Virus record (IMG/VR): IMGVR_UViG_3300011398_000004
Span: 9,055-73,054 of that record
DNA length: 64,000 bases
Reading direction: 5' to 3' (one strand)
Source: a virus
In this document: positions 7,787-60,692 of the stretch, piece by piece
Numbering within the stretch: the stretch's first letter is position 1
Layout: every line of letters starts with the position of its first letter
Translations under genes and position numbers: made by a program
Notes under the pieces: model-generated
Databases searched by the model: none
What the model saw: the letters and a program-made list of their open reading frames with translations, nothing else
What the model was told of the DNA's origin: nothing

Positions 7787-9982
7787 ATGGAAGCATTGAA
7801 ATCATACCCGTCCTGGTTAGAGAAATATTATGAGCGAGGATTCCGTTTAATCTATTATCCGACGAAGAAGAAAAATCCTGAAGGCAAAGAAGCTTCGGAA
7901 TGGCCTAATCGCATCTACACAAAAGAAGACTATGTTCCAGGACAAAACATAGGAATCGTATTAGGTAATGAGATTGCACCGGGGCAATTCCTTGCCGATA
8001 TAGATTTCGATTGGATTCCTGGGATTGAATTGTCTGGCGGTATCCTTCCTGCTACGAAATTTGTATACGGCCACCCACCTTCCAAACCGATATCCCATGC
8101 ATTCTATACGACGCATGAACCTGTGATATCTAAAGCATATGAGAACATAGATTATAAAGGTGAAGGATTTGTCCCAGCAAAGAAGACGTTCGTCGAACTT
8201 CGAGGTGTAAAATACGATGGGTCTTATGGGAATCAGTCGATGGTGCCTCCATCTATTTGGACACCAAAAGGTGAGGAATTAACCCATCCTGGTGAAGTTC
8301 TTGAATTTTATAAATCCTCATCTATCAATGCAGAGATATCCTTCGTAGATGATCTACCGAGACGGACATTGCTATACGCTATAGCTTGTATGCTACATGC
8401 GTGGATTGCAAAAGGATCTTTTAAGCATGATATGCGATTAGCGGTTGCCGGGTTCTTACTATCTAATGATTTGACAAAAGAAGAAGCTACCTCTGTAATG
8501 CGTTCCGTTATCGAATATAATGGGCCTCACGATAAAGGTGACGAAGTTCTTGCAATTGAATCTACGTTAAGAGCTATCTCGAATAAGAAAGCATTCACAG
8601 GTAAGAGCAAATTGATTGAATTATTAGGAGAACATGGACATGCGATTGTAAAACAAATTATGAAATGGTTAGGTGGTTCGGAATTCGTTGAATATAAAGG
8701 AAAAGTGCTACCAAATCAAGAAAATATAAGAAGATCAATCGAATTACGGAATATTAATTTGTCGTTCAACGAATTTTCATGTAAGCCGTTGATTGAATAT
8801 CCAGAGATTTATAAAGGGGAATTAGAAGATAATATCGAACTTCATATTTGGTTAGAGACAGAGAGAAAACATCGTTTTCTACCTCCTAAGACCTTATATC
8901 AAGATGTAGTGAGAAATGTAGCATGGGAGAATCGTTTCCATCCCGTCATTGACTATCTTAAGGAACTCGTATGGGATGGTATTCCTCGTATCAATACGTG
9001 GGTGATTCAAACTGCGGGAGCCGATGATACCCCATATATTCAATCTGTTTCCTCGATTATGCTGATGGCGGCTGTTAAGCGAATAACCGATCCAGGATGT
9101 AAATACGATGAGATGGTAGTCTTCGAATCTGGTAAACAAGGATTATTGAAATCCTCCGCATTACGGACACTGTGCCCGAAAGACGAATGGTTTAGCGATA
9201 ATCTGCCGCTGAACTTGAAAGCCCAGGAAATCATGGAATTGACCATGGGAAAATGGATAATCGAAGTCGCGGAACTGAATAAGATAAGAAGCACTCAGAT
9301 GGATCACGTCAAATCCATGTTATCGAGGCAGGATGATACTGCACGGCTGGCTTACGCACACAATCCCAAGACACAACGACGACAATGTATCTTCGTTGGA
9401 ACTACGAACTCATATACTTATTTGACGGATGCAACTGGGAACCGACGATTCTGGCCTATTCGAGTTAATAAATTCGATATTGTATGGATACGTGAGAATA
9501 GAGATCAATTATGGGCAGAAGCTTTCATGCGAGCAGAAAAAGGTGATTCTATTCGTTTACCGGAAGAATTATATAAACCTGCGGAAGATGAACAAGAAAA
9601 TCGACTAGTTGATGATGATTGGAAGGATAAATTAGATCGTTTGTATGATCGTCAATATCAACGGATTTCGAATGAATCAATCTTAATCGAATTAGGAATA
9701 CCTATTGATAGAAGAACTCAAGCAGTATCTACGAGAATAGCTGAGATTATGCAGTCACTAGGATTTACGAGAGCTAGTCAGGTGCGTGATAAGGAAACAG
9801 GAAAACAAGCTCGAGGGTGGAAGAGGGAAGTTGTATATCCTGTGAAGACATGGGTTGAAAAGAGAAGATTATTAGATGAAAATGACACGAATATTGAGAT
9901 GGAGAAGGAAGAGGAACGTATGATGAAAGAAGAGGAAGAACTTTTGGATCGAGAGATGTCATTGAAGAACTTTACGAAGTGA
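7787..9982 (+). CDS. DNA primase/helicase (primase-polymerase N-domain plus VirE/D5-like NTPase)
   Basis: 731 aa; P-loop-like FESGKQGLLKSS and the VirE-family signature TDATGNRRFWPIRV; adjacent to the iteron array. Confidence 0.6.
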   Translation: MEALKSYPSWLEKYYERGFRLIYYPTKKKNPEGKEASEWPNRIYTKEDYVPGQNIGIVLGNEIAPGQFLADIDFDWIPGIELSGGILPATKFVYGHPPSKPISHAFYTTHEPVISKAYENIDYKGEGFVPAKKTFVELRGVKYDGSYGNQSMVPPSIWTPKGEELTHPGEVLEFYKSSSINAEISFVDDLPRRTLLYAIACMLHAWIAKGSFKHDMRLAVAGFLLSNDLTKEEATSVMRSVIEYNGPHDKGDEVLAIESTLRAISNKKAFTGKSKLIELLGEHGHAIVKQIMKWLGGSEFVEYKGKVLPNQENIRRSIELRNINLSFNEFSCKPLIEYPEIYKGELEDNIELHIWLETERKHRFLPPKTLYQDVVRNVAWENRFHPVIDYLKELVWDGIPRINTWVIQTAGADDTPYIQSVSSIMLMAAVKRITDPGCKYDEMVVFESGKQGLLKSSALRTLCPKDEWFSDNLPLNLKAQEIMELTMGKWIIEVAELNKIRSTQMDHVKSMLSRQDDTARLAYAHNPKTQRRQCIFVGTTNSYTYLTDATGNRRFWPIRVNKFDIVWIRENRDQLWAEAFMRAEKGDSIRLPEELYKPAEDEQENRLVDDDWKDKLDRLYDRQYQRISNESILIELGIPIDRRTQAVSTRIAEIMQSLGFTRASQVRDKETGKQARGWKREVVYPVKTWVEKRRLLDENDTNIEMEKEEERMMKEEEELLDREMSLKNFTK

Positions 9983-10013: not shown

Positions 10014-10280
10014 TTGAATTTTACAAAATCAATAACTTTTGGAATCTCAAATATGGTGATAATGTCTCATGTTGAGCTTGTTGGTGGTAAAGTTTATAGA
10101 GGATTAACTAATCTGGATAAGGAGAAAGATGAAAGAATAAAATTTATTGTTATGAAAGAGGGTAGTATAGAGGATTATAGGGAATGTTTATTAGGATTTG
10201 GAATGCGGTCGGAGGAGATCGAAGCAGATATTGTTCATTTTGGTAGTCCTAAGTGGTTCTATTTTGTGAAAACAGACTGA
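10014..10280 (+). CDS. hypothetical protein
   Basis: ORF track. Confidence 0.35.
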   Translation: MNFTKSITFGISNMVIMSHVELVGGKVYRGLTNLDKEKDERIKFIVMKEGSIEDYRECLLGFGMRSEEIEADIVHFGSPKWFYFVKTD

Positions 10281-10329
10281 TTAGAGGAAGGAATTCGGCG
10301 GGAGGCGGGTTTTGGAGCTGTAAAAGGAC

Positions 10330-10654
10330 GTTTACACCGTTTACAGTGTTTACAAATCGAGGGTAAATCACGGTGTTCGTAAACATGGTGTTTACATGTC
10401 CAAAAAGCTGTAAGTTACTGGAAACAAACGAGTTGCGGCGTCACTGTTCTGTAAACGTAAACGGTAAACAACACCTCCTCCAACAGTTGCTTGGCGTTTC
10501 CCGGGACCGGGGCTTTTTGCGTAACTCTTTAAATACCATGTTTACACTGTTTACAGAGTTTACAAACCCTAAATCGGACCTGTAAATACCGGCATTTTTC
10601 TGTAAACTGGATTTGTAAACGGCATTTACCCTCGAACACCACCTGTTTACAGAA
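10330..10654. repeat. iteron array, about 15 copies of GTTTACA/TGTAAAC in both orientations; candidate origin of replication
   Basis: Direct reading shows gtttacaccgtttacagtgtttacaaa..., ...tgtaaacgtaaacggtaaaca..., ...gtttacactgtttacagagtttacaaa..., ...tgtaaactggatttgtaaacgg..., ...cctgtttacag. Non-coding, downstream of the primase/helicase. Confidence 0.5.
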
Positions 10655-11089
10655 AAGCTCTAGTGAACCACCCTCGGCACGACTAAATCCATCCTCGGAA
10701 TGAATTTATGAAGATAAATAGCATCTTTGACACATCGAGCCGGCTCCTCTGACCCTAAACTCGGCCAACAATACAGACTTTCTGAGTAAATTTTCCCGCA
10801 TTTCGGACACTTTCCTCGATTTTCGGAGCTCGGACGACGACTTTTTCCATCGGATGACCTCAGTTACGTCTTTTATCGTCAGTTACAGGTTTGAATAGAT
10901 CGAAATCCCATCATTGATGTGGTCTATCTACGTCTAAGTGCTTCCACCCACAACTTGCCGCAGATTGCAAGCTCTAAATTTCGAATCAACTCATTCCTAA
11001 ATCCACGTTTAGTAATCTAATGTAAGGATTACTGCCCGTGCCGTGCTTAATTATAGCACGGAACAGTTAAATCACCTAGTCTTATTTTT

Positions 11090-11104
11090 ATCAATGAAAA
11101 GATC
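11090..11104 (+). repeat. copy 1 of the 15-mer ATCAATGAAAAGATC
   Basis: Same 15-mer, or its reverse complement, recurs at 14011-14025, 14103-14117 and 14135-14149, on both sides of the high-GC island. Confidence 0.5.
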
Positions 11105-11116
11105 TAATTTAAAGAT

Positions 11117-11145
11117 TTGCAATCTTTATTAAAATGTGGTATAAT
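11117..11145 (+). promoter_or_regulatory. consensus sigma-70/sigma-A promoter TTGCAA-N17-TATAAT
   Basis: TTGCAA at 11117-11122, exactly 17-nt spacer, TATAAT at 11140-11145. Confidence 0.45.
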
Positions 11146-11152
11146 GATAAAT

Positions 11153-11497
11153 ATGCGAGAGAATTTCCCAAATAATGAGAGAAATATCTATTTCTCAGAA
11201 TATGTCGCACGTCGAAATATGATCAACAGATGTATAAATCCTGATTGTAAAGAATGGAAATGGTATGGTGTTAGAGGAATAAAGGTCTGTGATCGTTGGA
11301 TAAATAGTTTCTTAGATTTTCTTAAAGATATTGGTCCGAAACCATCACCAGGATTAACATTAGGAAGAATAGACAACGATGGGGATTATGAACCTGGGAA
11401 TGTTAAATGGTCAACTAGAAAAGAACAAGCAAATAATCGACGTAGACGAGAATACGATCGTTCACCAGATACAAGATTAAGGCGTAGGCGCATATAG
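11153..11497 (+). CDS. HNH homing endonuclease (YGVRGIKVC...RIDNDGDYEPGNVKWSTRKEQANNRRRR)
   Basis: ORF track 11117..11497 begins with TTG, which is the -35 hexamer itself, so the first in-frame ATG after the -10 box (11153) is preferred. Start is uncertain. Confidence 0.55.
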   Translation: MRENFPNNERNIYFSEYVARRNMINRCINPDCKEWKWYGVRGIKVCDRWINSFLDFLKDIGPKPSPGLTLGRIDNDGDYEPGNVKWSTRKEQANNRRRREYDRSPDTRLRRRRI

Positions 11498-11643
11498 TAA
11501 AGTTGTGCAATATTATCACTATAAGATCTTTTCATAGATCGGCTTCTAAAAGAAGAAATAAAAAGATGTAAACGGATATGGCTCACCTGTGCTATGCTTT
11601 TGTTTGCCGCCAATACCAGCGGCACTCACAAGGAGATAACGCG

Positions 11644-12027
11644 ATGAAATTCGATAACAAGATTGAAGCGATCAAGGCTCTCCGCAACATCCCTCGTGGA
11701 ACTGCGGAGATCTCAATTGCTACCGGCAAGCCTACGCTGGTAGTCAGTGGCGGTGGTCTGGGTTTCAAGGAGGCCAAGGATCTCGTCGAAGCCATCTGCG
11801 AGATGGGTGTCCAATATCATCTGTCTCGGCAGCGTAATGACATTCTGCGTGAATTCTTGCAGACCGAGCTCGCCAAGCTCCCCGCTCCGCCGTCCAACAT
11901 CCCCAACTGCAATCGTTGCGGGAATTCTCTCGTGGACCAGTTCTCGGCTCAGCCCTGCCAGACCTGCTGGGACAAGGAGCAGGATCGTCTGCGAGAAGCG
12001 CAACTCGACGATGACATTCACTTCTAA
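11644..12027 (+). CDS. ribosomal protein L7/L12 C-terminal-domain-like protein, first gene of the high-GC island
   Basis: AAGGAGATAACGCG then ATG. [11 protein letters not shown]...[16 protein letters not shown] matches the L7/L12 CTD core ([24 protein letters not shown]). High-GC codon usage unlike the flanking phage genes. Confidence 0.5.
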   Translation: [127 protein letters not shown]

Positions 12028-12314
12028 TGGTGACAGTCATCGTCATCCTAACCGTGTTTTTCGCGATCCTGCTAATGGTGGTAGGAGTTCCTCTTCTTCT
12101 CTTATGGATAGTCCGTAACTCTATCCAAGCGGCCAAGTATCGCGCTCTTGTTCATGCATCCTCGCAAGTAAGAACTGGATACACGATCGTTTACAAGAGC
12201 GGAAGAAAGACAGAGAAGATGGATCTTGATGGGGCCACGGAAGGAGAGGCCATGATGGATCTTGTCAAGAGGAAGGTCTCCTATGACAAAATTATTTCTT
12301 TAACGAAGAAATAA
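12027..12314 (+). CDS. small membrane protein (one TM helix)
   Basis: TAATG overlap with upstream gene; VIVILTVFFAILLMVVGVPLLLLWIV. Confidence 0.45.
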   Translation: MVTVIVILTVFFAILLMVVGVPLLLLWIVRNSIQAAKYRALVHASSQVRTGYTIVYKSGRKTEKMDLDGATEGEAMMDLVKRKVSYDKIISLTKK

Positions 12315-12400
12315 TAAGAACAAATCTGCTGGCTGCGCCGTGCTATATTACTACTGGCGCAGCGCATACCGCGCGAGCCACATAAAGGAGATAGGAAGAT

Positions 12401-12634
12401 ATGGGAGAGCCAATCAAAATGGAGCATATTCTGGCTCCTGCCGCAAAGGTCAAAGTGGCCTACGGCAACTGGCGCGAGACTTCTCTCGCGCTTGCTCCTG
12501 CCGAATTCAAGGCAGGCACTCAAATCGTCGGAACTTGCGGCTCCTGCTTGGAAGTCGTGGCCGCTGTCAAACTCAAACTCGTGCGTCTCCCCTTCGGGCG
12601 TGGGGAAGCGTGGAAATGCGAGAACTGCCGATGA
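12401..12634 (+). CDS. zinc-ribbon protein (CGSC...CENC)
   Basis: AAGGAGATAGGAAG then ATG at 12401. Confidence 0.45.
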   Translation: MGEPIKMEHILAPAAKVKVAYGNWRETSLALAPAEFKAGTQIVGTCGSCLEVVAAVKLKLVRLPFGRGEAWKCENCR

Positions 12635-12903
12635 TATTTCCACGCTGGAAACGTCGTTCCCATACAGCCAACGTCGCTGATCCCACACAGGTCACTGTGT
12701 GGGAGTTCGGCAAGCGTAACTTCCAAATCTCGCTCGTTGCCTCATGGGGCGTCGAGGCGAAGATTTACTTCATGGGCCGGAAGTTCTGGTCCTATGACGC
12801 GTGGTGGGCAATTCGTCTGTATGACTTCCTCGAGAACCAGTGGGAAGCTCAGCAGATGGATTACGAGGAAGACCCGATGGGTCGGTTGTCGGATTACGAA
12901 TAA
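12616..12903 (+). CDS. hypothetical Trp-rich protein
   Basis: Internal Met of ORF 12340..12903 (MRELPMIFPRWKRR...), overlapping the end of the upstream gene. The upstream part of that ORF looks like GC-driven read-through. Confidence 0.35.
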   Translation: MRELPMIFPRWKRRSHTANVADPTQVTVWEFGKRNFQISLVASWGVEAKIYFMGRKFWSYDAWWAIRLYDFLENQWEAQQMDYEEDPMGRLSDYE

Positions 12904-12916
12904 GGAGATAACGAAG

Positions 12917-13165
12917 ATGAGAAAACGCCAACAGGAGCTGTTCTTCGAGGACAGTTCCTGGAAAGGCTCGAATACCGAGCGTGATGTTATGAGATCCTTC
13001 GAAGCTGCTGGTCGGGAGACTGACATCAGTCACAATGAGCCGTTACCAGAGCGTCGGCGGCATCTGATGAAAGTCGTCTGCCTCGAGTGCTCGACGAAGT
13101 TTACGACGAGATCGCACATCCCGTCGTGTCCCGGCTGTGGAGGTTCGGATATCGAACTTCGGTGA
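12917..13165 (+). CDS. zinc-ribbon protein (CLEC...CPGC)
   Basis: TAAGGAGATAACGAAG then ATG; MRKRQQELFFED...VVCLECSTKFTTRSHIPSCPGCGGSDIELR. Confidence 0.45.
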   Translation: MRKRQQELFFEDSSWKGSNTERDVMRSFEAAGRETDISHNEPLPERRRHLMKVVCLECSTKFTTRSHIPSCPGCGGSDIELR

Positions 13166-13346
13166 ATTTCCGTGATCCTCGTTCGTTTGGACTACAGATA
13201 TGATCTCGCGGCGGTGCCCAAGACCCCGGCTGAACATATCAAGTGCCTGAACTTTCGATAACTTCGAGAGCGGGACGTAGGAGAACTTCTTTGAACTTGA
13301 TAGAATTAAGAACCTTTGAGCTTTTGAAAAAGAGCAAAATAAGATA

Positions 13347-13375
13347 TTGCAATCTTGCGGCGAGCGTGCTACGCT
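13347..13375 (+). promoter_or_regulatory. promoter TTGCAA-N17-TACGCT inside the island
   Basis: TTGCAAtcttgcggcgagcgtgcTACGCT. The -10 is the same type as the phage early promoter family. Confidence 0.35.
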
Positions 13376-13452
13376 GCATTACACGGTGCGGGTGCAATTC
13401 AGCACCCCACCACACGTCGTCAATCAGCGGCAGATAGAGAGCAGAGTGTATC

Positions 13453-13905
13453 ATGAGCAGGAATCAGCGCGGTGGTGGAGTTCAGGAGCAGGAGAAGCCG
13501 GAGACGGAAGTCGCGGTCGAGACCACGGCTGTCGCGGAGAAGGCCAATCGCACGGCGTTCTTCCATTCGCCGCATCCGAAGGTCGGGCAGGCGTCGCGGG
13601 TCAGCTACACGATCCCCGGCGTCTCGGGCAATATCGTCATCTTCCTCAGCATGTTCAAGGACGGCGTCGCGCCTCCCACGCTGACGTTCGATGTCGACCT
13701 CGCGGAGCCGAAGGCGGACGGGAAGCAGGCCAAGGCGGAGGCCGCGGCGCTCAAGGCTCAGGAGAAGGCCGAGAAGGCGCAGGCGCGTCTCGTCGCTCAG
13801 CAGGAGAAGGCGGTGGCGATCGCGGCCAAGGCGCAGCAGGCGTTGGACGCGGCCAAGGCTAAGGTCGGGACGGCGGAGCCGAAGACCGAGGAAGTCACGT
13901 CGTAG
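13453..13905 (+). CDS. hypothetical protein with Ala/Lys/Gln-rich C-terminal coiled-coil or histone-H1-like tail
   Basis: ORF track. Overlapping Arg/Leu-rich ORFs on other frames are GC artefacts. Confidence 0.4.
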   Translation: MSRNQRGGGVQEQEKPETEVAVETTAVAEKANRTAFFHSPHPKVGQASRVSYTIPGVSGNIVIFLSMFKDGVAPPTLTFDVDLAEPKADGKQAKAEAAALKAQEKAEKAQARLVAQQEKAVAIAAKAQQALDAAKAKVGTAEPKTEEVTS

Positions 13906-13962
13906 AGCTCGGATTCTGGTTGCAACCGATGGTATGATCGGTTGCAGTCTAGACGCTCGGAG

Positions 13963-14005
13963 ATAGCCGCAGAGCACTCTCCCTCTGCGGCTATTCTTTT
14001 GTTCT
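13963..14005 (+). terminator. rho-independent terminator closing the island operon
   Basis: Perfect 12-bp stem ATAGCCGCAGAG/CTCTGCGGCTAT, 8-nt loop, then TCTTTTGTTCT. It is preceded by a second hairpin at 13919-13947 (TTGCAACCGAT/ATCGGTTGCA). Confidence 0.55.
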
Positions 14006-14102
14006 AATTCATCTTTTCATTGATCGGACGGACTTCATAGGTAATGAATCTCCTCAGTTAGAGATTCATCCTTAAGATTAGATGTGCTATAATCTTCTGC
14101 GT

Positions 14103-14149
14103 ATCAATGAAAAGATCCTTTACTTCTTATCATTGATCTTTTCATTGAT
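14103..14149. promoter_or_regulatory. operator-like inverted repeat ATCAATGAAAAGATC, 17-nt spacer, GATCTTTTCATTGAT
   Basis: Two perfect 15-bp arms; the same 15-mer recurs at 11090 and 14011. Confidence 0.45.
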
Positions 14150-14221
14150 CGCGACGATCGGATGGATCATATCTAAGATCCTCTTTGATCAGTTACAGAT
14201 CGCTCATCGCGGCGCGGCTCC

Positions 14222-14252
14222 AAATGTACGAAACCGTACATTGTACGAAACC
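14222..14252. repeat. direct repeat GTACGAAACCGTACA, two copies
   Basis: gtacgaaaccgtacattgtacgaaaccgtacatgg. Confidence 0.4.
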
Positions 14253-14254
14253 GT

Positions 14255-14432
14255 ACATGGCACGGCATATGCTATAGCATATACCATGCCATGCCATAGT
14301 GTCATATGGCACGGTTTATGCTATAGCATAAACCCTGCCATGTCATAATACCGTATGGCATAGGATATGCTATAGCATATCCCATGCCATACCACGGCAT
14401 AGCATGGCACGAGGTATGCTAATAGCATATAC
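14255..14432. repeat. array of four copies of the 14-bp perfect palindrome TATGCTATAGCATA (one copy has a 1-nt insertion) at roughly 48-bp spacing, interleaved with GGCATGG/CCATGCC motifs
   Basis: Read directly: catatgctatagcatatacc, tttatgctatagcataaacc, atatgctatagcatatccc, gtatgctaatagcatatacc. Non-coding; the overlapping ORF 14082..14348 is spurious. Confidence 0.5.
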
Positions 14433-14769
14433 CATACCACATACACGCATACCAATATGTGCATGTGGCATGGTATATGCCCTTTGTACACCTAAAACCC
14501 TGTAAGTGTAGGTGTCTCAATAATAGGTCAAAACCCGTCTAAGGGGCAAACGAGCACCCTAACGGGTGCTGGCATGGCATGGCGGGTGCTACTCACCACG
14601 GGGCTAGGAATGGCAAATAGGGCATATGTCACTTTGTGTCACAAAGTAGCACCCGACACTATGTATCTACAGATATTTTGCGGCACCCTTACGATTTATG
14701 TTGCATTGACCTATATATATGTGCCATACTACGGGTTACTGCAATACCGCAGTGTATGAGAGTAGGTCA

Positions 14770-15433
14770 TATGACAAGAGCAGAGAAAAGAGCAGCCGCT
14801 AAGGCTGCTACGCTGGACACCGTAGCCAACAGCATGTTGGCTGCCGAAGTGGCACCCGCCGAAGTGACACCCGCCGAAGTGGCACCCGCCGAAGTGGCAC
14901 CCGCCGAAGTGGCACCCGCTACCATCCTGCCATTGTGGCTCAGTGCCATACTGGCGTCATTCGCTGGCAGTATCGGCAGTGCATACGCCGTCATTTGCAC
15001 TGGCTATGCCACGTCACCCGCGCGGGTGAAATACAGCATCACGGGACGTGGTGACGCCATTGTGGCGGTACTCTCCCACTTCGTGACACTGCCCCTGCAA
15101 GGTTCGCTCTTGAACCTGTACCCGACGGACACGGAAGTACCGGGGCATACGCTGCACTACGCTGGCGCTAACAGTGTCGGCCACACGTACCGCCTTAGCG
15201 GACACAAGGGTACATGGGTGTTTCGTGGTACGGCCCTTGCGATGCTCGGCACCGTACCGCCTGCCATGCTGCTTTGTGACGTGCCATTGTTGGGCGATAT
15301 CCGTACCGCCAATCTCACCACACCCGAAGCACTCAAGACACCGCACGGACTCACGGTACACAGTGCCATACTTGAAGTAGTGGCACCCGTCGAAGTGGCA
15401 CCCGTCGCACCCGTGGTGCCCGATGCCACGTAG
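14770..15433 (+). CDS. hypothetical protein with (PAEVA)x5 tandem repeat and hydrophobic segments
   Basis: 15-bp DNA tandem repeat gccgaagtggcaccc x5 at ~14848-14922; partial repeats again at the C-terminus (VAPVEVAPVAPVVP); high GC. Start chosen at ATG 14770, since the upstream part of ORF 14636 lies in lower-GC sequence. Confidence 0.4.
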
Positions 15434-15642
15434 GCGCATCACGCTAACACCCGATGGGGGTTTATCCCTCATGGTGTTAGGTGTGGTGTACGTGCTACTG
15501 CTCTTATACGTGTCACGCTAGGCACGTACCGCGCCACGTCACCCGATGCCACTGTGTACCAGTAGCGGTACACAGTGGCATCATAATGTACAGGCATAAG
15601 CCGTGCCACCCCCCAAAAGTGTAATCACGGCTGGCGCGGACG

Positions 15643-16140
15643 TCACAAAATTTGAGGTTTGATATTCATGGCGGAGTTAAAAACTTTAACACGTTCATGA
15701 GCTCTTTGTGCTAATATTTCTAATCTTTTAATTTCAATTTGGTTGATCATATTCAACATAGATATTCTATGTTCTTCAGCTAAAGCCAAATCCCGCTTAT
15801 ATATTCCTATTTCTCTCTTCTCTTCCATTCGCTTCTTTGTTCTTATACGGTGACAATTCGCGCAAACCAAGTCACATTTCTTAATTTCTTCTAATAGGAT
15901 ATTTAGACCAGTAGCATACAATAAATCTGATATATCTTTAAATTTGTCATCCGGGTCTCGATGATCGAAATCCATACATTCAGGTGGAAAACTATTATGA
16001 CAATCCATACAAGGATTGGTTCTTAAACTTTCGATCATTAGACGTCTTTGTTCTTTCCAACCTTCTCGACCATTTATCCATTTCATTTCACCCTCTCTAA
16101 TTCTTTCATTCCCCAATGGAACGCCCATCTTGCAACCCAT
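15643..16140 (-). CDS. HNH endonuclease
   Basis: CMDCHNSFPPECMDFDHRDP...CANCHRIR HNH/zinc motif; GAGGAG Shine-Dalgarno. Confidence 0.6.
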   Translation of the reverse strand: MGCKMGVPLGNERIREGEMKWINGREGWKEQRRLMIESLRTNPCMDCHNSFPPECMDFDHRDPDDKFKDISDLLYATGLNILLEEIKKCDLVCANCHRIRTKKRMEEKREIGIYKRDLALAEEHRISMLNMINQIEIKRLEILAQRAHERVKVFNSAMNIKPQIL

Positions 16141-19038: not shown

Positions 19039-19809
19039 CTACTGAGCATCGATGATCGAAGAAGCCGAAGAACTACCCTCCTCGATATAGTCGTCCGCCG
19101 TAGGCAGACGCCATGAGCCATCAGGCAAAATCACGACTTCGTGCTTAACACCGCGCATCACGACGATGTCCGTTTTCAGCCCAGGCTTCAGTTCTCGTTC
19201 GATTTCGAGAGGGACACCGACTCGTTCGGCAAATCCAGGGTTATCTGCTCTGTATTTCTTCAGATAATCCACGATTGCTCGACGAACCAGACGAGTTCGT
19301 GGTCGATCTGTATCTTCCTCAATCATCGTGAGCTCACGAACTTGGTCTGGAGTGAGTGCTACGTGAATCTTTGTCATGACTGCCATTTTGTTTTTCCTAT
19401 TCTGTTTACGACTTTCGTTAAGTAATTCTCTTGTCTGTTTATTTAAATATCTTATCTTTTCTCTTATTTTCTTGTTTACCTCCTCACGTGATAATCTTGC
19501 TATATGGTCAACACGTGGACGTTTATTTTTTACCTGTTCTTCCCATGTTGCCCAACGAACATTTCCTGGCTCATAATTTTTATTGTTGTCAATTCTTTCT
19601 AATGTTAAATTTATAGAAGTTTTTGGGCCAATATCCTTATAGAATGCTGAAAAAGAATGAGACCATTTTTCACAGACCTTAATTCCTCTTCCACCATACC
19701 ATTTGTAGCCTTGATATTCTTCATCTGTGCATCGGCGTATCATTTCTACCCATGCACGATATTCAGATGTACCACTCATTCCGTGGCGTTCATACTGTAA
19801 ATAGCGCAT
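19039..19809 (-). CDS. HNH homing endonuclease with C-terminal ribbon-helix-helix-like extension
   Basis: [34 protein letters not shown]...RIDNNKNYEPGNVRWATWEEQ, and C-terminal TRLVRRAIVDYLKKY. Confidence 0.6.
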   Translation of the reverse strand: MRYLQYERHGMSGTSEYRAWVEMIRRCTDEEYQGYKWYGGRGIKVCEKWSHSFSAFYKDIGPKTSINLTLERIDNNKNYEPGNVRWATWEEQVKNKRPRVDHIARLSREEVNKKIREKIRYLNKQTRELLNESRKQNRKNKMAVMTKIHVALTPDQVRELTMIEEDTDRPRTRLVRRAIVDYLKKYRADNPGFAERVGVPLEIERELKPGLKTDIVVMRGVKHEVVILPDGSWRLPTADDYIEEGSSSASSIIDAQ

Positions 19810-19984: not shown

Positions 19985-20377
19985 ATGGCAAGCATCTTTG
20001 ATCTAGATCCAGATGATCTTCCTCCACGATCCCAAAAGGAGGAGATCACCTTAAAGCGATCTAAGCATAGAGAGTCTATCACCCCTTCTGATTATTCGAA
20101 GGGTAAACGGACTTTGATGTCAATGGTCGAATCGGCATTTGATTGTCTAGAGGATGCCGTTAAGTCCGCGGATTTCCCAACAGCGATTAAAGCAGCTCAA
20201 ATTATTCTCGATAGATCCGGTTTCGGTCCTAAATCTACTGTAGACGTCAATACTACGTCCCTAGACTTATCTACATTAAGTCGAGAGGAACTTGCCGAGC
20301 GTGCTAGTCGCATATCTCATCAACTTCGGAGTAAAGATCAAAAAACGATTGATATTACTCCTTCCTCGATTAATTGA
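19985..20377 (+). CDS. candidate terminase small subunit
   Basis: 130 aa, first gene of the packaging block. AIKAAQIILDRSGFGPK resembles TerS helix motifs. Called mainly from position. Confidence 0.35.
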   Translation: MASIFDLDPDDLPPRSQKEEITLKRSKHRESITPSDYSKGKRTLMSMVESAFDCLEDAVKSADFPTAIKAAQIILDRSGFGPKSTVDVNTTSLDLSTLSREELAERASRISHQLRSKDQKTIDITPSSIN

Positions 20378-27892: not shown

Positions 27893-29794
27893 ATGGCTGC
27901 CCGCATTCTGCTGGAAACTGGTGATGCACTCTTAGCAGAGAATGCGGATACTCTACGTCGAGAAGAAGTATTTTTCGATGATACACGTCAAGATATTATT
28001 AATGGTTTAGATTCTGATCAAGCTGAAGCTGGCGGTTGGGATGCGAAAGTTAAACCGAATATTCCAATTGCTAATGTTATACGAACATCTGATAATGTAG
28101 CTACAATCACTTTACAAGCACAAAGTGATCATGATATAACAGTTCAAGAAATAATTACAGATATAATTCCTGGGTCTGCTCTTGTAGGTGGTAGTTCTAT
28201 TGTAGTGATACCATCATTTACAATTGATCCAGTAATTGTGAATAATATAGGAGCTTCAACTGGTTTAGCAACTGCGTTAGGTATAGGTCTTGCATTAGCT
28301 CTTAGTACAGCATCTGCAATAGGAGCATCTTCAGTCACCGCTGTTGGATCGAGTATTGTCTCCGCCGTAGGTTCTATATCAGGTTCTTCTTCCGTAGCAG
28401 GAACTGGTAAATCAGATTTTATAGCAGTTGCGTCAGCGACAGGCTCCAGTAGTGTAGCTGCAACTGGATCAAGTATTGCTTCAAGTTCTGGTGCTTCAAC
28501 AGGATCTTCTAATATAACTGTTGTAGGTTCATCATTAGCAGTTTCAGTAGGTTCTGCTTTCGGCGTAGCATCCGTATTAGGAACAGGGGCTTCTCGATTT
28601 GATGCTATAGGTTCGTCCGTTGGTGCCGCTACTGTACTAAGTACGGGTGCAGGCTTAGCCAGTTCTCTAGGTGCTTCAACAGGCGCGGCAACAGTAGAAG
28701 GGATAACTTCTTCAGCAGACCCTATCGGTTCGATAGTAGGATCTTCATCCGTAACAGCAATAGGTTCTTCATTAGCTACTTCAATTGGACTTGTTTCAGG
28801 TTCTTCATCTGTTATAGCGATAGGGACATCGGATGTTTCTGCTGTTGGTGCAGCTATTGGATCATGTTCAGTAGCGGCAACTGGGAATTCGTTAATTACA
28901 TCCATCGGTTCTGCAGTAGGAGCTTCATCTGTTGTAGCTACTGGTCAATCTTTATTTACCGCAGTAGCTTCCTCGATTGGATCATGCACAGTAGTCTCTA
29001 CTGGTAGTTCATTATTTACAGCAATAGCTTCTTCAATAGGATCTTCATCTGTTTCAGCTACGGGTCAATCTACTTCTACATCTATAGCCTCCTCGATTGG
29101 ATCATCTGTTGTAATATCAACTGGTGCTTCACTATTTACAGGAATAGGATCTGTAACTGGTTCTGCATCTATTACAGGAATAAATGGCGAACAGATTATT
29201 GGAGTTATTTCTGGTTCTAGTTCTGTTCTTGGTATAGGATCTTCTCTTGCAACATCTATTGGTAGTGTCACTGGATCTAGTTCTATTTTAGGTATAGGTC
29301 AAAGCCAAGTAAGTAGTATTGGATCATCTATAGGTTCATGTTCAGTTTCATCTGTAGGAGCGAGTAATTTCCGAGGAATAGCGGTTTCATCTGGCAGTTC
29401 AATCGTTACATCTACTGGAACTGGAATAAAGATAGCAGTTGGGTCTTCTATTGGTTCTTGTTCAGTCAGTTCAACTGGTTTATCTTTATTCACAGGAATT
29501 GGTGTATCTTCTGGTAATGCGAATATTTTAGGAACTGGTAATAGTCAATCTATAAGTATAGCATCTTCGATAGGATCTTCCTCGATTATAGCTGTTGGCG
29601 TTGGTGGGTCAATTAGTATCGGGACAGTAATAGGATCATCTGATGTTTTATCTATAGGATCTGCTTTAGGTGTTTTCCCATATATTAATATCACTTCACA
29701 AACAGTTTTTGATCCAGGATTACCTGTAGTAATACATGAAATACGGACTATTTCTGTAACTGAGAGAACTCTTAGGGTGACTTTAGATGTCTAA
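27893..29794 (+). CDS. Ser/Gly/Ala-rich repetitive fibre-like protein, about 35 imperfect 12-aa repeats (xIGSSSVxAxGxS)
   Basis: 633 aa, e.g. SAVGSSIVSAVGSISGSSSVAGTG...; 36-bp DNA periodicity. The antisense ORFs 28144..28905, 29065..29271 and 29299..29493 are repeat artefacts. Confidence 0.55.
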   Translation: MAARILLETGDALLAENADTLRREEVFFDDTRQDIINGLDSDQAEAGGWDAKVKPNIPIANVIRTSDNVATITLQAQSDHDITVQEIITDIIPGSALVGGSSIVVIPSFTIDPVIVNNIGASTGLATALGIGLALALSTASAIGASSVTAVGSSIVSAVGSISGSSSVAGTGKSDFIAVASATGSSSVAATGSSIASSSGASTGSSNITVVGSSLAVSVGSAFGVASVLGTGASRFDAIGSSVGAATVLSTGAGLASSLGASTGAATVEGITSSADPIGSIVGSSSVTAIGSSLATSIGLVSGSSSVIAIGTSDVSAVGAAIGSCSVAATGNSLITSIGSAVGASSVVATGQSLFTAVASSIGSCTVVSTGSSLFTAIASSIGSSSVSATGQSTSTSIASSIGSSVVISTGASLFTGIGSVTGSASITGINGEQIIGVISGSSSVLGIGSSLATSIGSVTGSSSILGIGQSQVSSIGSSIGSCSVSSVGASNFRGIAVSSGSSIVTSTGTGIKIAVGSSIGSCSVSSTGLSLFTGIGVSSGNANILGTGNSQSISIASSIGSSSIIAVGVGGSISIGTVIGSSDVLSIGSALGVFPYINITSQTVFDPGLPVVIHEIRTISVTERTLRVTLDV

Positions 29795-60078: not shown

Positions 60079-60106
60079 TTTATCCTTTCCGTCATTAACG
60101 AAGAAG

Positions 60107-60190
60107 TGCGAAGGGAGGGACTCGAACCCTCATGATCTTACGATCGGGAGATTTTAAGTCTCCTGTGAATGCCAATTCCACCACCTTCGC
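60107..60190 (-). tRNA. tRNA-Leu (anticodon UAA), type II with long variable arm
   Basis: Reverse complement GCGAAGGTGGTGGAATTGGCATTCACAGGAGACTTAAAATCTCCCGATCGTAAGATCATGAGGGTTCGAGTCCCTCCCTTCGCA. 7-bp acceptor stem, 3-bp D-stem, anticodon stem GGAGA/TCTCC with loop CTTAAAA, T-arm GAGGG-TTCGAGT-CCCTC. Confidence 0.8.
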
Positions 60191-60607
60191 TCAATGATTG
60201 ACTTTACCATTACAGCTACGAGAACAAAATATTCCTATCCAAGGTTTACATTTCTTATTTCTAACTTGATGAATAGTTGGATTAAATTCTTTTCTACAAA
60301 ACTCACAAATCCAAATTATCTTAGAAATATCTTCTGTATGATGTTTTCTATGTTCAGGCCTTTTTAAAACTTCAAAATTATTATCTTCATTATTAGCATG
60401 GTTTAAATCTTTATGATGAACTTGTTCATCTATTTCTAAATATCTATTTAATATACATTCCATTCTATATTTAGGATAAGAAACAGTCATCCTTTCAATT
60501 ATCGTACTGTTAATATCTCGCTTAACTAAACAGACATGGAGTCTTCCATCAGGTCTTGAATATGGTCCGTAAACCTCATATTCTTCATACACGATGTTTG
60601 ACTCCAT
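60191..60607 (-). CDS. HNH endonuclease inserted between two tRNA genes
   Basis: HHKDLNHANNEDNNFEVLKRPEHRKHH, plus C-terminal CEFC...CSRSC zinc knuckles. Confidence 0.6.
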   Translation of the reverse strand: MESNIVYEEYEVYGPYSRPDGRLHVCLVKRDINSTIIERMTVSYPKYRMECILNRYLEIDEQVHHKDLNHANNEDNNFEVLKRPEHRKHHTEDISKIIWICEFCRKEFNPTIHQVRNKKCKPWIGIFCSRSCNGKVNH

Positions 60608-60619
60608 GTCTATTCAAAG

Positions 60620-60692
60620 TGGGCCATCTTGGACTTGAACCAAGAACCACTCGATTATGAGCCGAGTGCTCTGACCATTGAGCTAACGGCCC
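60620..60692 (-). tRNA. tRNA-Met/Ile2 (anticodon CAU), elongator type
   Basis: Reverse complement GGGCCGTTAGCTCAATGGTCAGAGCACTCGGCTCATAATCGAGTGGTTCTTGGTTCAAGTCCAAGATGGCCCA; anticodon loop CTCATAA; the anticodon stem lacks the three G-C pairs typical of initiator tRNA. Confidence 0.8.

What the first reader, a model, noticed from the sequence alone, without database searches (positions are those of the whole stretch)
11580..15640. Repeat-flanked, visibly higher-GC foreign island inside the phage replication region
Between two AT-rich HNH genes (11153..11497 and 15643..16140) the sequence turns GC-rich and spurious ORFs appear in all six frames. The real genes use a distinct, strictly conserved ribosome-binding site, AAGGAGATA-N5-ATG, at 11644, 12401 and 12917.

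The cassette has its own TTGCAA-N17-TACGCT promoter at 13347 and a strong terminator at 13963-14005. A 15-mer, ATCAATGAAAAGATC, sits at 11090. Its reverse complement lies just after the terminator at 14011, and the 15-mer forms a perfect inverted pair at 14103/14135.

Cargo is an L7/L12-CTD-like protein, a one-TM membrane protein, two zinc-ribbon proteins, an Ala/Lys-rich protein, and a PAEVA-repeat protein.

This looks like a horizontally acquired moron or mini-mobile cassette whose ends are marked by the 15-mer. The 15-mer could be a recombination or homing target, or an operator. No integrase or transposase is present; the flanking HNH endonucleases are the only candidate mobilisers.
Basis: seen in the sequence. 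Interest (0 to 1): 0.8.

Follow-up and report, generated by a model that had tools for sequence, protein, structure and literature searches.

The report
Conserved GC-rich accessory region, not mobile island
The GC-rich 4 kb stretch in this AT-rich uncultured phage is real, but related phages carry the same genes, junctions and control sequences, so it is an inherited accessory-gene region rather than a repeat-bounded foreign cassette, and it holds unusual arrays of sigma-54-type sites.

Summary
Window 11.6-15.6 kb has GC 0.46-0.71 against about 0.39. GC3 of its seven genes is 0.66, against 0.28 +/- 0.10 for the backbone. HNH genes flank it, and the terminator and five copies of the 15-mer are real.

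The interpretation mostly fails.
- The 15-mers do not mark the ends. Two bracket the left HNH gene outside the GC-rich DNA, three lie between genes F and G, and none is at the right end.
- AAGGAGATA is the phage's general ribosome-binding site, with spacing 5, 7 and 6.
- Genes A, B, E and F are syntenic downstream of the primase in relative L012 (primase 47% identical).
- Gene G, both its junctions, the right HNH gene and the GC step recur in relatives with 43-81% G identity.
- No integrase, transposase or bounding inverted repeats were found.

Best reading: a lineage-conserved, compositionally distinct accessory region of several transcription units.

It carries conserved cis-elements:
- a GATC-containing 17-mer, probably an operator;
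- ATACC-loop hairpins with covarying stems before start codons;
- arrays of sigma-54-type -24/-12 sites.

The top 11 sigma-54 matrix hits in the 64 kb all lie in 14258-15608. Similar clusters occur in five other distinct family contigs. Function is unproven.

The parts
11090..11104 (+). 15-mer copy 1 (ATCAATGAAAAGATC), 12 nt upstream of the -35 of promoter P1
   Evidence: sequence
11117..11145 (+). Promoter P1, TTGCAA-N17-TATAAT with TG extension. This is the family promoter type, TTGCAATC-N14-TGgTATAAT.
   Evidence: 10 of 12 matches, TG present. Same type in L012 at 4763-4795 and 5643-5672.
11153..11497 (+). Left HNH endonuclease gene. It is AT-rich (GC3 0.23) and starts 7 nt after the -10 element. 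It lies outside the GC-rich DNA.
   Evidence: phrog_3377, 1.5e-34. Paralogues at 6183-6776, 19039-19809 and 2065-2579. No homologue in the related loci.
11525..11541 (+). 17-mer copy GATCTTTTCATAGATCG. This is the 15-mer on the minus strand with one mismatch. With copy 1 it brackets P1 and the HNH gene.
   Evidence: (I12)
11590..11623 (+). Extended -10-like TGcTATGCT (11590-11598), then hairpin gccgc-CAATACCA-gcggc (11606-11623), upstream of gene A
   Evidence: sequence
11644..12027 (+). Gene A, 127 aa. It has the N-terminal motif [13 protein letters not shown] (L7/L12 C-terminal-domain-like), a zinc ribbon, and a C-terminus DDDIHF.
   Evidence: Homologues in L012 (50% over 52 aa) and L019/L021 (34% over 67 aa). 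Alignment.
12027..12314 (+). Gene B, 95 aa, with an N-terminal transmembrane helix
   Evidence: Homologue in L012 at 7657-7872, 31%, E 7e-4.
12341..12374 (+). Extended -10-like TGcTATATT (12341-12349), then hairpin gcgc-ATACC-gcgc (12362-12374), upstream of gene C
12401..12634 (+). Gene C, 77 aa, a zinc-ribbon protein
   Evidence: Homologue in L017, 43% over 68 aa, E 2e-9.
12631..12903 (+). Gene D, 90 aa. Its start overlaps the stop of C (ATGA). No homologue was found.
   Evidence: (gene called in L001)
12917..13165 (+). Gene E, 82 aa, a zinc-ribbon protein
   Evidence: L012 homologue 57% over 68 aa, E 7e-23.
13347..13375 (+). Promoter P2 of gene F, TTGCAATC...TGcTACGCT
   Evidence: sequence. 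Positional homologue CTTGTAATC-N14-TGgTATCCT about 100 nt before the L012 F gene.
13453..13905 (+). Gene F, 150 aa. It has a small beta-rich domain and an Ala/Lys-rich helix. GC3 is 0.88.
   Evidence: Homologues in L010 (41% over 122 aa, 3e-17), L012 (two copies) and L019/L021.
13962..14005 (+). Intrinsic terminator: 13-bp stem followed by a T run
   Evidence: The region is conserved in L087 at 71%.
14010..14026 (+). 17-mer copy CATCTTTTCATTGATCG
14085..14093 (+). Extended -10-like TGcTATAAT (P3), directed toward G
   Evidence: sequence
14103..14151 (.). Perfect inverted pair of the 15-mer separated by 17 bp, just downstream of P3
   Evidence: I22
14114..14201 (.). Eight GATC sites in 88 bp, spaced 9-21 bp. 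The next GATC is at 15745.
14225..14258 (+). Two tandem copies of TGTACGAAACCGTACAT. Each is a 6-bp-arm palindrome of the form TGT-N10-ACA. Candidate enhancer or protein-binding sites.
   Evidence: (D16)
14257..14493 (.). Array of four roughly 38-bp palindromes at 49-bp spacing, plus a fifth degenerate one. Each arm reads TGGCAY-N5-ATGCT, a sigma-54 -24/-12-like site.
   Evidence: A like palindrome occurs in L012 at 10166-10200.
14722..14753 (+). Extended -10-like TGcCATACT (14722-14730), then hairpin actgc-AATACC-gcagt (14738-14753), upstream of G. The block is conserved in relatives.
   Evidence: Equivalent hairpins lie before G in L087, L090 and L091.
14771..15433 (+). Gene G, 220 aa. It has a basic N-terminus, a PAEVA tandem repeat, a hydrophobic helix and a conserved C-terminal domain.
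   Evidence: Homologues at 81, 67, 46, 43 and 38% identity; alignment A3.
14843..14919 (+). 15-bp x 5.1 coding tandem repeat. It is the only polymorphic site between samples.
   Evidence: Five against two copies and an A/G difference at 14867 compared with L001/L002.
15545..15582 (.). Perfect 16-bp inverted repeat downstream of G. Relatives carry different perfect palindromes at the same place.
   Evidence: (I18)
15591..15640 (.). Right junction: the palindromic site GGCATAAGCCGTGCC (sigma-54-like on the minus strand, 15.8 bits), then CCCCCCAAAAGTGTAA...GACGTCAC
   Evidence: Conserved in L087, L088 and L089.
15643..16140 (-). Right HNH endonuclease gene, AT-rich. It is a conserved neighbour of G.
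   Evidence: phrog_3106, 2.7e-24. L089 homologue 53% identical.

Best explanation
What it is. The stretch is a lineage-conserved accessory-gene region. It lies between the rightward replication module (primase-helicase plus origin iterons) and a leftward operon. It was inherited together with its flanks and did not insert as a cassette.

Transcription units (all inferred from sequence).
- P1 (11117) reads through the left HNH gene into A-E. A and C also have their own extended -10 elements.
- P2 (13347) drives F and ends at the terminator at 13962.
- A long regulatory spacer (14000-14770) leads to G.

Composition. The AT-rich spacers carry the phage family's own promoter type. The coding DNA keeps a GC-rich codon usage that also marks the homologous region in relatives. 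My preferred reason is that these genes belong to a GC-richer gene pool, or are tuned to a GC-richer host, and avoid the A-ending codons (TTA, ATA) that the backbone favours. The phage's own tRNA-Leu(UAA) would serve TTA; its tRNA(CAU) is called as Met, and a role in reading ATA is only a possibility.

Control elements (function inferred, not shown).
- The GATC-containing 17-mer acts as an operator for a DNA-binding protein at P1 and P3.
- ATACC-loop hairpins sit at or near the mRNA 5' ends, just before the ribosome-binding sites.
- Arrays of sigma-54-type -24/-12 sites, preceded by paired palindromes, recruit host sigma-54 RNA polymerase upstream of G.

Shown: the composition step, synteny and junction conservation, motif enrichment and stem covariation. 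Inferred: transcript structure, operator role, sigma-54 use and the reason for the GC bias.
For: Composition.
- GC3 is 0.66 in the island against 0.28 in the backbone.
- TTA makes up 4% of Leu codons in the island against 38% in the backbone. ATA makes up 10% of Ile codons against 30%.
- The phage encodes tRNA-Leu(UAA) and tRNA(CAU).

Synteny.
- In L012 the homologues run A 5786, B 7657, E 8082, F 8737 and 9755, in the same order downstream of the primase.
- Their identities (31-57%) bracket the 47% identity of the primase.

The same GC step in relatives.
- L012: primase GC3 0.41 against 0.49-0.89 for the region's genes.
- L089: segments at 0.39, 0.59 and 0.43. L087: 0.39, 0.56 and 0.41.

Junctions.
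- L087 shares the end of F with its terminator, the left junction CAGTTrCAGATC..ATCGCGGCG, G, and the right junction.
- L089 has G followed by the right HNH homologue.
- Three independent assemblies are identical to the window across the region, apart from the repeat in G.

Family promoter type in the spacers.

17-mer: five copies in the window, three in L087 and one in L090. None with two or fewer mismatches in about 880 kb of other loci.

Hairpin.
- GCATACCGC occurs six times in L012, always on the + strand.
- Equivalent hairpins lie 14-29 nt before start codons.
- Cells paired 81%; six of seven pairs show compensatory change; no shuffle out of 500 reaches the covariation score.

Sigma-54-like sites.
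- A matrix built from 20 experimentally supported Salmonella sites (PMC3844500) puts its top 11 window hits all within 14258-15608. The best scores, 17.1-18.7 bits, fall inside the training range of 15.4-23.3.
- Clusters occur in L012, L019/L069 (which carry the same scores and spacings and are probably one phage), L021, L027, L087 and L090. These hold 32 of the 76 hits of 14 bits or more in 2.2 Mb.
- L027 has six co-oriented sites with differing spacers.
Against: - No expression data exist, so every promoter, operator and hairpin role is inferred from sequence.
- The host is unknown, so sigma-54 and an activator cannot be checked. No activator gene is seen in the phage.
- In the window the sigma-54-like sites are arranged face to face inside palindromes. 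That suits a dimeric DNA-binding protein as well as it suits a promoter. Their -12 element is ATGC rather than TTGC.
- The motifs upstream of A and C have a spacer one base short of the canonical spacing.
- Hairpin sites were partly chosen because they have stems, so the covariation count is biased upward.
- The GC step is not family-wide. The mean difference is +0.014 over 30 loci.
- G-bearing contigs from relatives are all 2.7 kb or shorter. Backbone and region phylogenies could not be compared, so repeated swapping is not excluded.
- D and G have no homologue in the primase-anchored loci.
Confidence: 0.6

Rival explanations
1. First reader's model. A recently acquired foreign moron or mini-mobile cassette, with the 15-mer marking its ends, possibly moved by the flanking HNH endonucleases.
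For: - A strong composition step.
- HNH genes on both sides.
- The 15-mer is non-random.
- F has a promoter-like site and a terminator.
Against: - The 15-mers do not coincide with either composition boundary.
- The genes are syntenic in relatives.
- The junctions, the right HNH gene and the GC step are conserved where G is only 43-81% identical.
- L012 has the region without any 15-mer.
- No recombinase and no bounding inverted repeat were found.
Confidence: 0.05
2. Recurrent module swapping inside the phage family. The region is repeatedly replaced by recombination with GC-richer relatives through conserved junction sequences. That keeps it GC-rich in AT-rich backbones.
For: - The family spans GC 0.38-0.65 and most members are GC-rich.
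- G homologues occur in GC-rich contexts (L090 0.57, L091 0.60) and in AT-rich-flanked ones (window, L087, L089).
- Conserved left and right junction motifs could serve as recombination linkers.
- G is 81% identical in L087, whereas the closest primase found anywhere is 61%.
Against: - Identities of the region's genes to L012 (31-57%) match the primase (47%), as expected for co-inheritance.
- The right HNH gene (53%) and G (43%) diverge together in L089.
- No relative with both backbone and region was available to show incongruence.
Confidence: 0.25
3. The palindrome array and the GATC cluster (14100-14500) are not sigma-54 sites. They are iterons of a second replication origin, a partition site or a packaging site, bound by a dimeric phage protein next to an AT-rich, methylation-sensitive stretch.
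For: - Four large palindromes at a regular 49-bp spacing lie beside an AT-rich segment (GC 0.355) holding eight GATC sites in 88 bp.
- Single palindromic GGCAY-N5-RTGCC sites recur at the right junction of G in relatives.
- From my own knowledge, this layout recalls lambda ori, P1 oriR and pac, and F sopC.
Against: - A separate iteron set lies directly after the primase at 10329-10627, as in L012.
- No ParA, ParB or extra initiator gene was detected.
- In L090 and L027 the motif occurs as non-palindromic, co-oriented TGGCAC-N5-TTGCA units that match the sigma-54 consensus in full.
Confidence: 0.12
4. Assembly chimera: GC-rich DNA from another genome was joined into the phage contig.
For: A sharp composition change. 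Contigs of relatives break in or near this region.
Against: - Three independent assemblies cover the region or parts of it. ENA ERZ27267659 spans both boundaries, Logan SRR6262718 spans the left boundary up to the repeat in G, and ERZ27267614 holds an 808-bp internal piece.
- Diverged relatives share both junctions.
- Family-type promoters lie inside the region.
Confidence: 0.01

Closest known systems
Morons of lambdoid phages (independent transcription units with their own promoter and terminator and atypical composition; own knowledge of Hendrix, Juhala and colleagues)
   Same: Gene F has a promoter-like site, a strong terminator and a GC content far from the backbone. The whole region consists of small accessory genes between core modules.
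   Different: F and its promoter are present at the same place in relatives whose primase is only 42-49% identical. No relative shows the flanking genes adjacent. The addition is therefore ancient or ancestral, not a recent 'more DNA' event.
Hyperplastic or accessory regions of large virulent phages, with free-standing HNH homing endonuclease genes (own knowledge, T4-like phages)
   Same: A cluster of small genes of unknown function near the replication genes, interspersed with HNH genes. The left HNH gene has paralogues in the genome and is missing from relatives.
   Different: Here the region keeps a codon usage very different from the backbone across deep divergence, and it carries its own conserved set of cis-elements.
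Sigma-54 (RpoN) -24/-12 promoters with upstream enhancer sites (sites listed in PMC3844500)
   Same: - TGGCAC(G)-N4/5-(T/A)TGC with exact GG-to-GC spacing.
- Matrix scores within the range of experimentally supported Salmonella sites.
- Paired palindromes just upstream: window 14225-14258, and CCACGTGG pairs in L087 and L090.
   Different: - The sites come in dense arrays, 27-50 bp apart, and face to face inside palindromes in the window. That is not the layout of ordinary sigma-54 promoters.
- The host and activator are unknown.
- Two literature searches found no report of such arrays in phages.
Iteron or centromere arrays (lambda ori, P1 oriR, F sopC; own knowledge)
   Same: Regularly spaced palindromic repeats next to an AT-rich, GATC-rich stretch.
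   Different: The repeat core equals the sigma-54 consensus. A separate iteron set follows the primase. No partition or extra initiator genes were found.
Small 5'-leader hairpins with a conserved pentaloop (lambda and P22 boxB, or 5' stabiliser stem-loops such as ompA; own knowledge)
   Same: A 4-9 bp stem with a conserved 5-nt loop (AUACC) and covarying stem sequence, close to the mRNA start and before the ribosome-binding site.
   Different: The loop sequence differs. There are up to six copies per genome, each directly before a gene. No boxA-like partner was looked for and no binding protein is known.

Membership tests
Moron (lambdoid-phage sense) | Own promoter and own terminator framing one or a few genes | tested here: met
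   For gene F only: P2 at 13347-13375 (sequence; homologous position in L012) and the terminator at 13962-14005. These are sequence predictions, not transcripts.
Moron (lambdoid-phage sense) | Nucleotide composition distinct from the neighbouring genes | tested here: met
   GC3 is 0.88 for F and 0.66 for the region, against 0.28 for the backbone.
Moron (lambdoid-phage sense) | Inserted between genes that are adjacent in related phages | tested here: not met
   No empty site was found. Relatives L012, L010 and L019/L021 carry homologues at the same place. L087 and L089 share the junctions.
Transposable element or MITE-like cassette | Terminal inverted repeats at both ends | tested here: not met
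   The 15-mer copies do not sit at the composition boundaries. No bounding inverted repeat of 14 nt or more in the window or in L087-L091.
Transposable element or MITE-like cassette | Transposase or integrase, or presence at several unrelated sites | tested here: not met
   No such Pfam domain among 75 proteins scanned. The region is found only at this position in relatives.
Homing-endonuclease-mobilised segment | A free-standing endonuclease gene adjacent to the segment | tested here: met
   HNH genes at 11153-11497 and 15643-16140.
Homing-endonuclease-mobilised segment | Presence/absence polymorphism of endonuclease plus cargo among related genomes | tested here: not met
   The right HNH gene and G are both retained and diverge together in L089 (53% and 43%). 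The left HNH gene is absent from relatives while the cargo is present.
Homing-endonuclease-mobilised segment | A cleavage target present in the endonuclease-free allele | not testable with these tools
   This needs enzyme assays or a close relative that lacks the HNH gene.
Sigma-54-dependent promoter | GG at -24 and GC at -12 with fixed spacing, within the TGGCAC-N5-TTGCW consensus | tested here: met
   Eight matches to TGGCA[CT]-N5-[TA]TGC, all within 14258-15608. Matrix scores reach 18.7 bits against a training range of 15.4-23.3. Relatives reach 21.6 bits. The motifs upstream of A and C have a spacer one base short and fail this test.
Sigma-54-dependent promoter | Upstream enhancer bound by an AAA+ activator | tested here: inconclusive
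   Paired palindromes lie just upstream: 14225-14258 in the window, and CCACGTGG pairs in L087 and L090. No activator gene is in the phage.
Sigma-54-dependent promoter | The host encodes sigma-54, and transcription starts about 12 nt after the GC | not testable with these tools
   The host is unknown. The only clue is that full-length primase relatives lie on contigs binned with Acidobacteriota. No transcript data exist.
Ribosomal protein L7/L12 C-terminal domain (gene A) | Pfam PF00542 match above the gathering score | tested here: not met
   19.7 bits against a cut-off of 25.9, covering 15 residues only. PDB L7/L12 hits at E about 0.5. The structure model was too poor to compare (pLDDT 46).

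The most novel reading that the evidence does not exclude
This environmental phage family carries, downstream of its primase, dense arrays of high-affinity sigma-54 docking sites together with a private set of ATACC-loop leader hairpins.

The arrays would do one of two things.
- They could place accessory genes such as G under enhancer-dependent, host-state-dependent control.
- They could act as a sink that ties up the scarce sigma-54 holoenzyme in closed complexes. That would blunt sigma-54-dependent host stress or defence responses during infection.

The GC-rich codon usage would mark genes that must be read without help from the phage's own tRNAs.
Probability: 0.2. Interest if true: 0.75.

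Novelty: new variant of a known kind. Interest (0 to 1): 0.5.

Why it matters
A sharp GC island flanked by endonuclease genes is usually read as recent horizontal transfer. Here, comparison with relatives shows that such an island can be old and stably inherited. Composition alone therefore misleads.

The region also exposes a candidate regulatory system that I could not find described for phages:
- clustered sigma-54-type sites conserved in several members of an uncultured soil and groundwater phage family;
- covarying leader hairpins;
- a GATC-rich operator.

If the sites really bind sigma-54 polymerase, this would be a new way for phages to use or disarm an alternative host sigma factor. 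It would be directly testable with purified holoenzyme.

Tried and rejected
- Megablast and blastn of the island and both flanks against 50,697 phage records gave no match. No donor lineage could be named at the DNA level.
- Single-protein scans of IMG/VR with the primase, E and G found nothing, or only a low-complexity match. An alignment of G homologues was too variable to scan with.
- A concatenated A-E query to the protein database returned nothing, not even self hits, so that search was wasted.
- Pfam, PHROGs and PADLOC gave no family for A-G beyond sub-threshold zinc-ribbon and L12 hits. PDB sequence searches of F and G were empty.
- AlphaFold models of G (pLDDT 35) and A (pLDDT 46) were unusable, so no fold search was run.
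- Rfam gave only sub-threshold microRNA-hairpin matches on the palindromes.
- I considered the G module as a transposon-like unit, because L089 shows a 13-nt inverted copy of the right-junction motif. I rejected this because no inverted repeat of 14 nt or more bounds it in any relative.
- I considered that the left HNH gene had inserted into a 15-N17-15 palindrome like the one at 14103-14149. I rejected this because the order of promoter and arms differs, and the flanks beyond the arms match on one side only (D10).
- Giant repeat proteins that matched G (P0122 and others) are summed weak repeat matches and were ignored.
- A family-wide GC rise downstream of the primase was tested and not found.

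Full report
**Setting.**
The window is most of a roughly 64 kb uncultured tailed phage.
- It encodes a portal, a P22-type coat protein, a large terminase, a tape-measure protein, a ligase, a UvrD-type helicase and a VapE-type primase-helicase.
- No integrase or partition genes were found.
- It has no nucleotide match in 50,697 phage records. Its terminase is at most 38% identical to that of any listed phage.
- The primase defines a large family of 55-77 kb environmental phages from soil, rhizosphere, groundwater and sea. Their GC ranges from 0.38 to 0.65, and the window lies at the low end.
- Independent assemblies from three other samples match the window at 99.98-100% over the stretches they cover: one 64-kb contig, one 5.5-kb contig and one 808-bp contig.

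**The observation.**
- GC rises from about 0.36-0.39 to 0.46-0.71 between 11.6 and 15.64 kb. It dips at gene B and falls to 0.355 at 14.0-14.2 kb.
- The shift is at synonymous sites. GC3 is 0.53-0.88 (mean 0.66) for the seven genes, against 0.28 +/- 0.10 for 81 backbone ORFs.
- TTA falls from 38% to 4% of Leu codons, and ATA from 30% to 10% of Ile codons.
- Both flanking genes are HNH endonucleases with backbone-like composition.
- The terminator at 13962-14005 is strong.
- The 15-mer has five copies, all between 11090 and 14149. No shuffle out of 100 gave five.

Two details are wrong. AAGGAGATA is spaced 5, 7 and 6 nt from the three ATGs. It also occurs three times outside the island, twice directly upstream of backbone gene starts, so it is simply the phage's Shine-Dalgarno sequence.

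**Why it is not a 15-mer-bounded foreign cassette.**
- The repeat copies do not coincide with the composition boundaries. The pair at 11090 and 11525 encloses promoter P1 and the AT-rich left HNH gene. The other three copies lie in the AT-rich spacer between F and G. The right boundary has none.
- Four of the seven genes have homologues in the same order downstream of the primase in L012: A, B, E and F, with F present twice. Identities are 31-57%, while the primase is 47% identical. C has a homologue in L017. F and A have homologues in L010 and L019/L021.
- L012 has none of the 15-mers. It does show the same step in GC3, 0.41 for the primase against 0.49-0.89 for the region.
- G looked like an orphan but is a real gene. 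An all-against-all HMMER search found five homologues at 38-81% identity. All share the same build: a basic N-terminus, a different tandem peptide repeat in each, a hydrophobic helix and a conserved C-terminal domain.
- L087, with G 81% identical, shares the end of F and its terminator, the left junction, the leader, G and the right junction.
- L089, with G 43% identical, has AT-rich flanks (0.39 and 0.43) around a 0.59 module. It has the same CCCCCAAAAGTGTAA junction, followed by a homologue of the right HNH gene at 53% identity.
- The step, the junctions and the right HNH gene therefore predate a deep split.
- The left HNH gene has three paralogues in the window and none in the 85 loci held at that stage. 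In L012 the equivalent promoter is followed directly by A. It looks like a selfish insertion next to the region.
- No bounding inverted repeats were found.

**Anatomy and likely working.**
- The AT-rich spacers carry the family's own promoter type, TTGCAATC-N14-TGgTATAAT. It occurs at P1 (11117-11145), twice in L012, and as P2 before F, where L012 has a positional homologue.
- Extended -10-like elements (TGc plus YATRYT) lie upstream of A, C and G and at 14085.
- Seven to nine bases after three of them sits a hairpin with the loop ATACC.
- The core GCATACCGC occurs six times in L012, always on the coding strand. The hairpin precedes G in L087, L090 and L091 with quite different stems.
- On ten sites, 81% of cells pair and six of seven pairs show changes on both sides. 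No shuffle out of 500 reaches the covariation score, and slid controls fall to 0.03-0.12 against 0.62. Some of these sites were picked because they have stems, so this is supportive, not proof.
- I read the hairpins as 5'-leader structures, either stabilisers or a protein operator, for a subset of accessory genes.

**The F-G spacer (14000-14770).** In order it contains:
- the 17-mer GATCTTTTCAWTGATCG;
- P3;
- a perfect inverted 15-mer pair;
- eight GATC sites in 88 bp, followed by 1.5 kb with none;
- two tandem TGT-N10-ACA palindromes;
- four 38-bp palindromes at 49-bp spacing, plus a fifth degenerate one.

The 17-mer recurs in the same spacer in L087 (three copies) and L090 (one copy), and nowhere else in about 880 kb. 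It is therefore a conserved binding site, most simply an operator.

**Sigma-54-type sites.**
- Each palindrome arm reads TGGCAY-N5-ATGCT.
- I built a weight matrix from 20 experimentally supported Salmonella sigma-54 sites (PMC3844500). Its top eleven hits in the whole window, on both strands, all fall within 14258-15608. The best scores lie inside the range of the real sites.
- This is not just one amplified repeat. L090 has four or five co-oriented TGGCAC-N5-TTGCA units. L027 has six co-oriented sites with unrelated spacers within 230 bp. L012, L019/L069, L021 and L087 also have clusters. L012 even has the same TGCTATAGCA-centred palindrome.
- These seven clusters hold 32 of the 76 hits of 14 bits or more in 2.2 Mb. 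L019 and L069 show the same scores and spacings and are probably the same phage.
- Whether the sites work as promoters, as a sink for sigma-54 holoenzyme, or as sites for another dimeric protein cannot be settled here.

**Why GC-rich?** Two readings remain, and complete genomes of the G-bearing relatives would decide between them.
- I prefer long-term co-inheritance, with selection on these genes to avoid the A-ending codons the backbone favours. The phage's tRNA-Leu(UAA) matches the backbone's TTA bias. Its tRNA(CAU) was called as Met, so any link to ATA is conjecture. Region genes and flanking genes diverge in step.
- Repeated swapping with GC-richer relatives through the conserved junctions is not excluded. 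G occurs in both GC-rich and AT-rich backgrounds. It is also more similar in L087 (81%) than any primase found (61% or less).
- The GC step is not a family-wide trait.

**Verdict.**
The mobile-cassette reading is largely refuted. What remains is an old, compositionally distinct accessory region with an unusual and conserved set of control sequences.

As an island it is an ordinary kind of thing, a moron-like accessory region. The sigma-54-type arrays and the leader hairpins make it a new variant worth an experiment.

Noticed in passing
window 10329-10627: Several short repeat sets (CGTTTACAC, TGTTTACAC, TGTAAACGG) lie just after the primase gene. This is probably the replication origin. L012 has GGTTACAG iterons at the equivalent place, 3840-4170.
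   Followed up: partly
window 20000-20061, inside ORF 19985-20377: Six GATC sites lie within 62 bp of a 130-aa gene. The gene sits upstream of the large terminase and is conserved in 11 related loci. It may be a small-terminase gene carrying a pac-type site.
   Followed up: no
window 14843-14919 (gene G): This 15-bp coding repeat is the only difference between the window and two other samples' contigs over 5.5-20 kb: five copies against two, plus one A/G change at 14867. One of those contigs ends inside the repeat. Every G homologue carries a different repeat unit, so the tract is hypervariable.
   Followed up: yes
window 12004-12027 (C-terminus of gene A); L021 15160-15510: Protein A ends in DDDIHF and its L021 homologue ends in DDDIKF. 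From my own knowledge, these resemble the DDDIPF tip of bacterial SSB that recruits replication and repair proteins. A might mimic that tail.
   Followed up: partly
window 60106-60692: An AT-rich gene (60191-60607, GC 0.29) that I take to be another HNH endonuclease gene sits between the two phage tRNA genes, tRNA-Leu(UAA) and tRNA(CAU). It was not confirmed individually. Confirmed HNH genes are 6183-6776 and 19039-19809, the latter possibly joined to a ribbon-helix-helix domain. The overlapping ORFs 2065-2226 and 2199-2579 look like a split copy.
   Followed up: partly
window 28856-29177, inside ORF 27893-29794: A 120-bp coding tandem repeat (2.2-2.4 copies, 75% matches) lies in a 633-aa protein with very low GC3 (0.14).
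   Followed up: no
window, gene not located (one of the 65 proteins in alignment A2): One phage protein matches the major vault protein shoulder domain (3e-26) and a vault repeat domain (1.7e-10). An SPFH/Band 7 match (1.5e-5) was also seen, but the output does not show whether it is the same protein. This is an unusual domain set for a phage.
   Followed up: no
L004 659-2350: The closest full-length relative (primase 61% identical, 71.7 kb contig) encodes a 563-aa Ro60/TROVE plus vWA protein. Its contig ends 1.6 kb after the primase, about where the GC-rich region would begin.
   Followed up: no
L092, L093, L123, L144: The only genome-collection contigs with full-length primase matches are binned with Acidobacteriota (Acidobacteria, Vicinamibacterales, Bryobacteraceae). 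This is a weak clue to the host range of the wider family.
   Followed up: partly
window 11032-11066: The palindrome CCGTGCT-TAATTAT-AGCACGG lies upstream of P1. It resembles the motif before gene C (12329-12350, 77% identical) and reads TGcTATAAT on the minus strand. It may be a leftward promoter facing the origin (D14, 104).
   Followed up: no
L090 59-320; L012 9463-9480; L027 5500-5570: In relatives, the sigma-54-like sites are often followed by GGATCC or GGATCCGA, as in TTGCAGGATCCGA. This links the GATC richness to the arrays.
   Followed up: no
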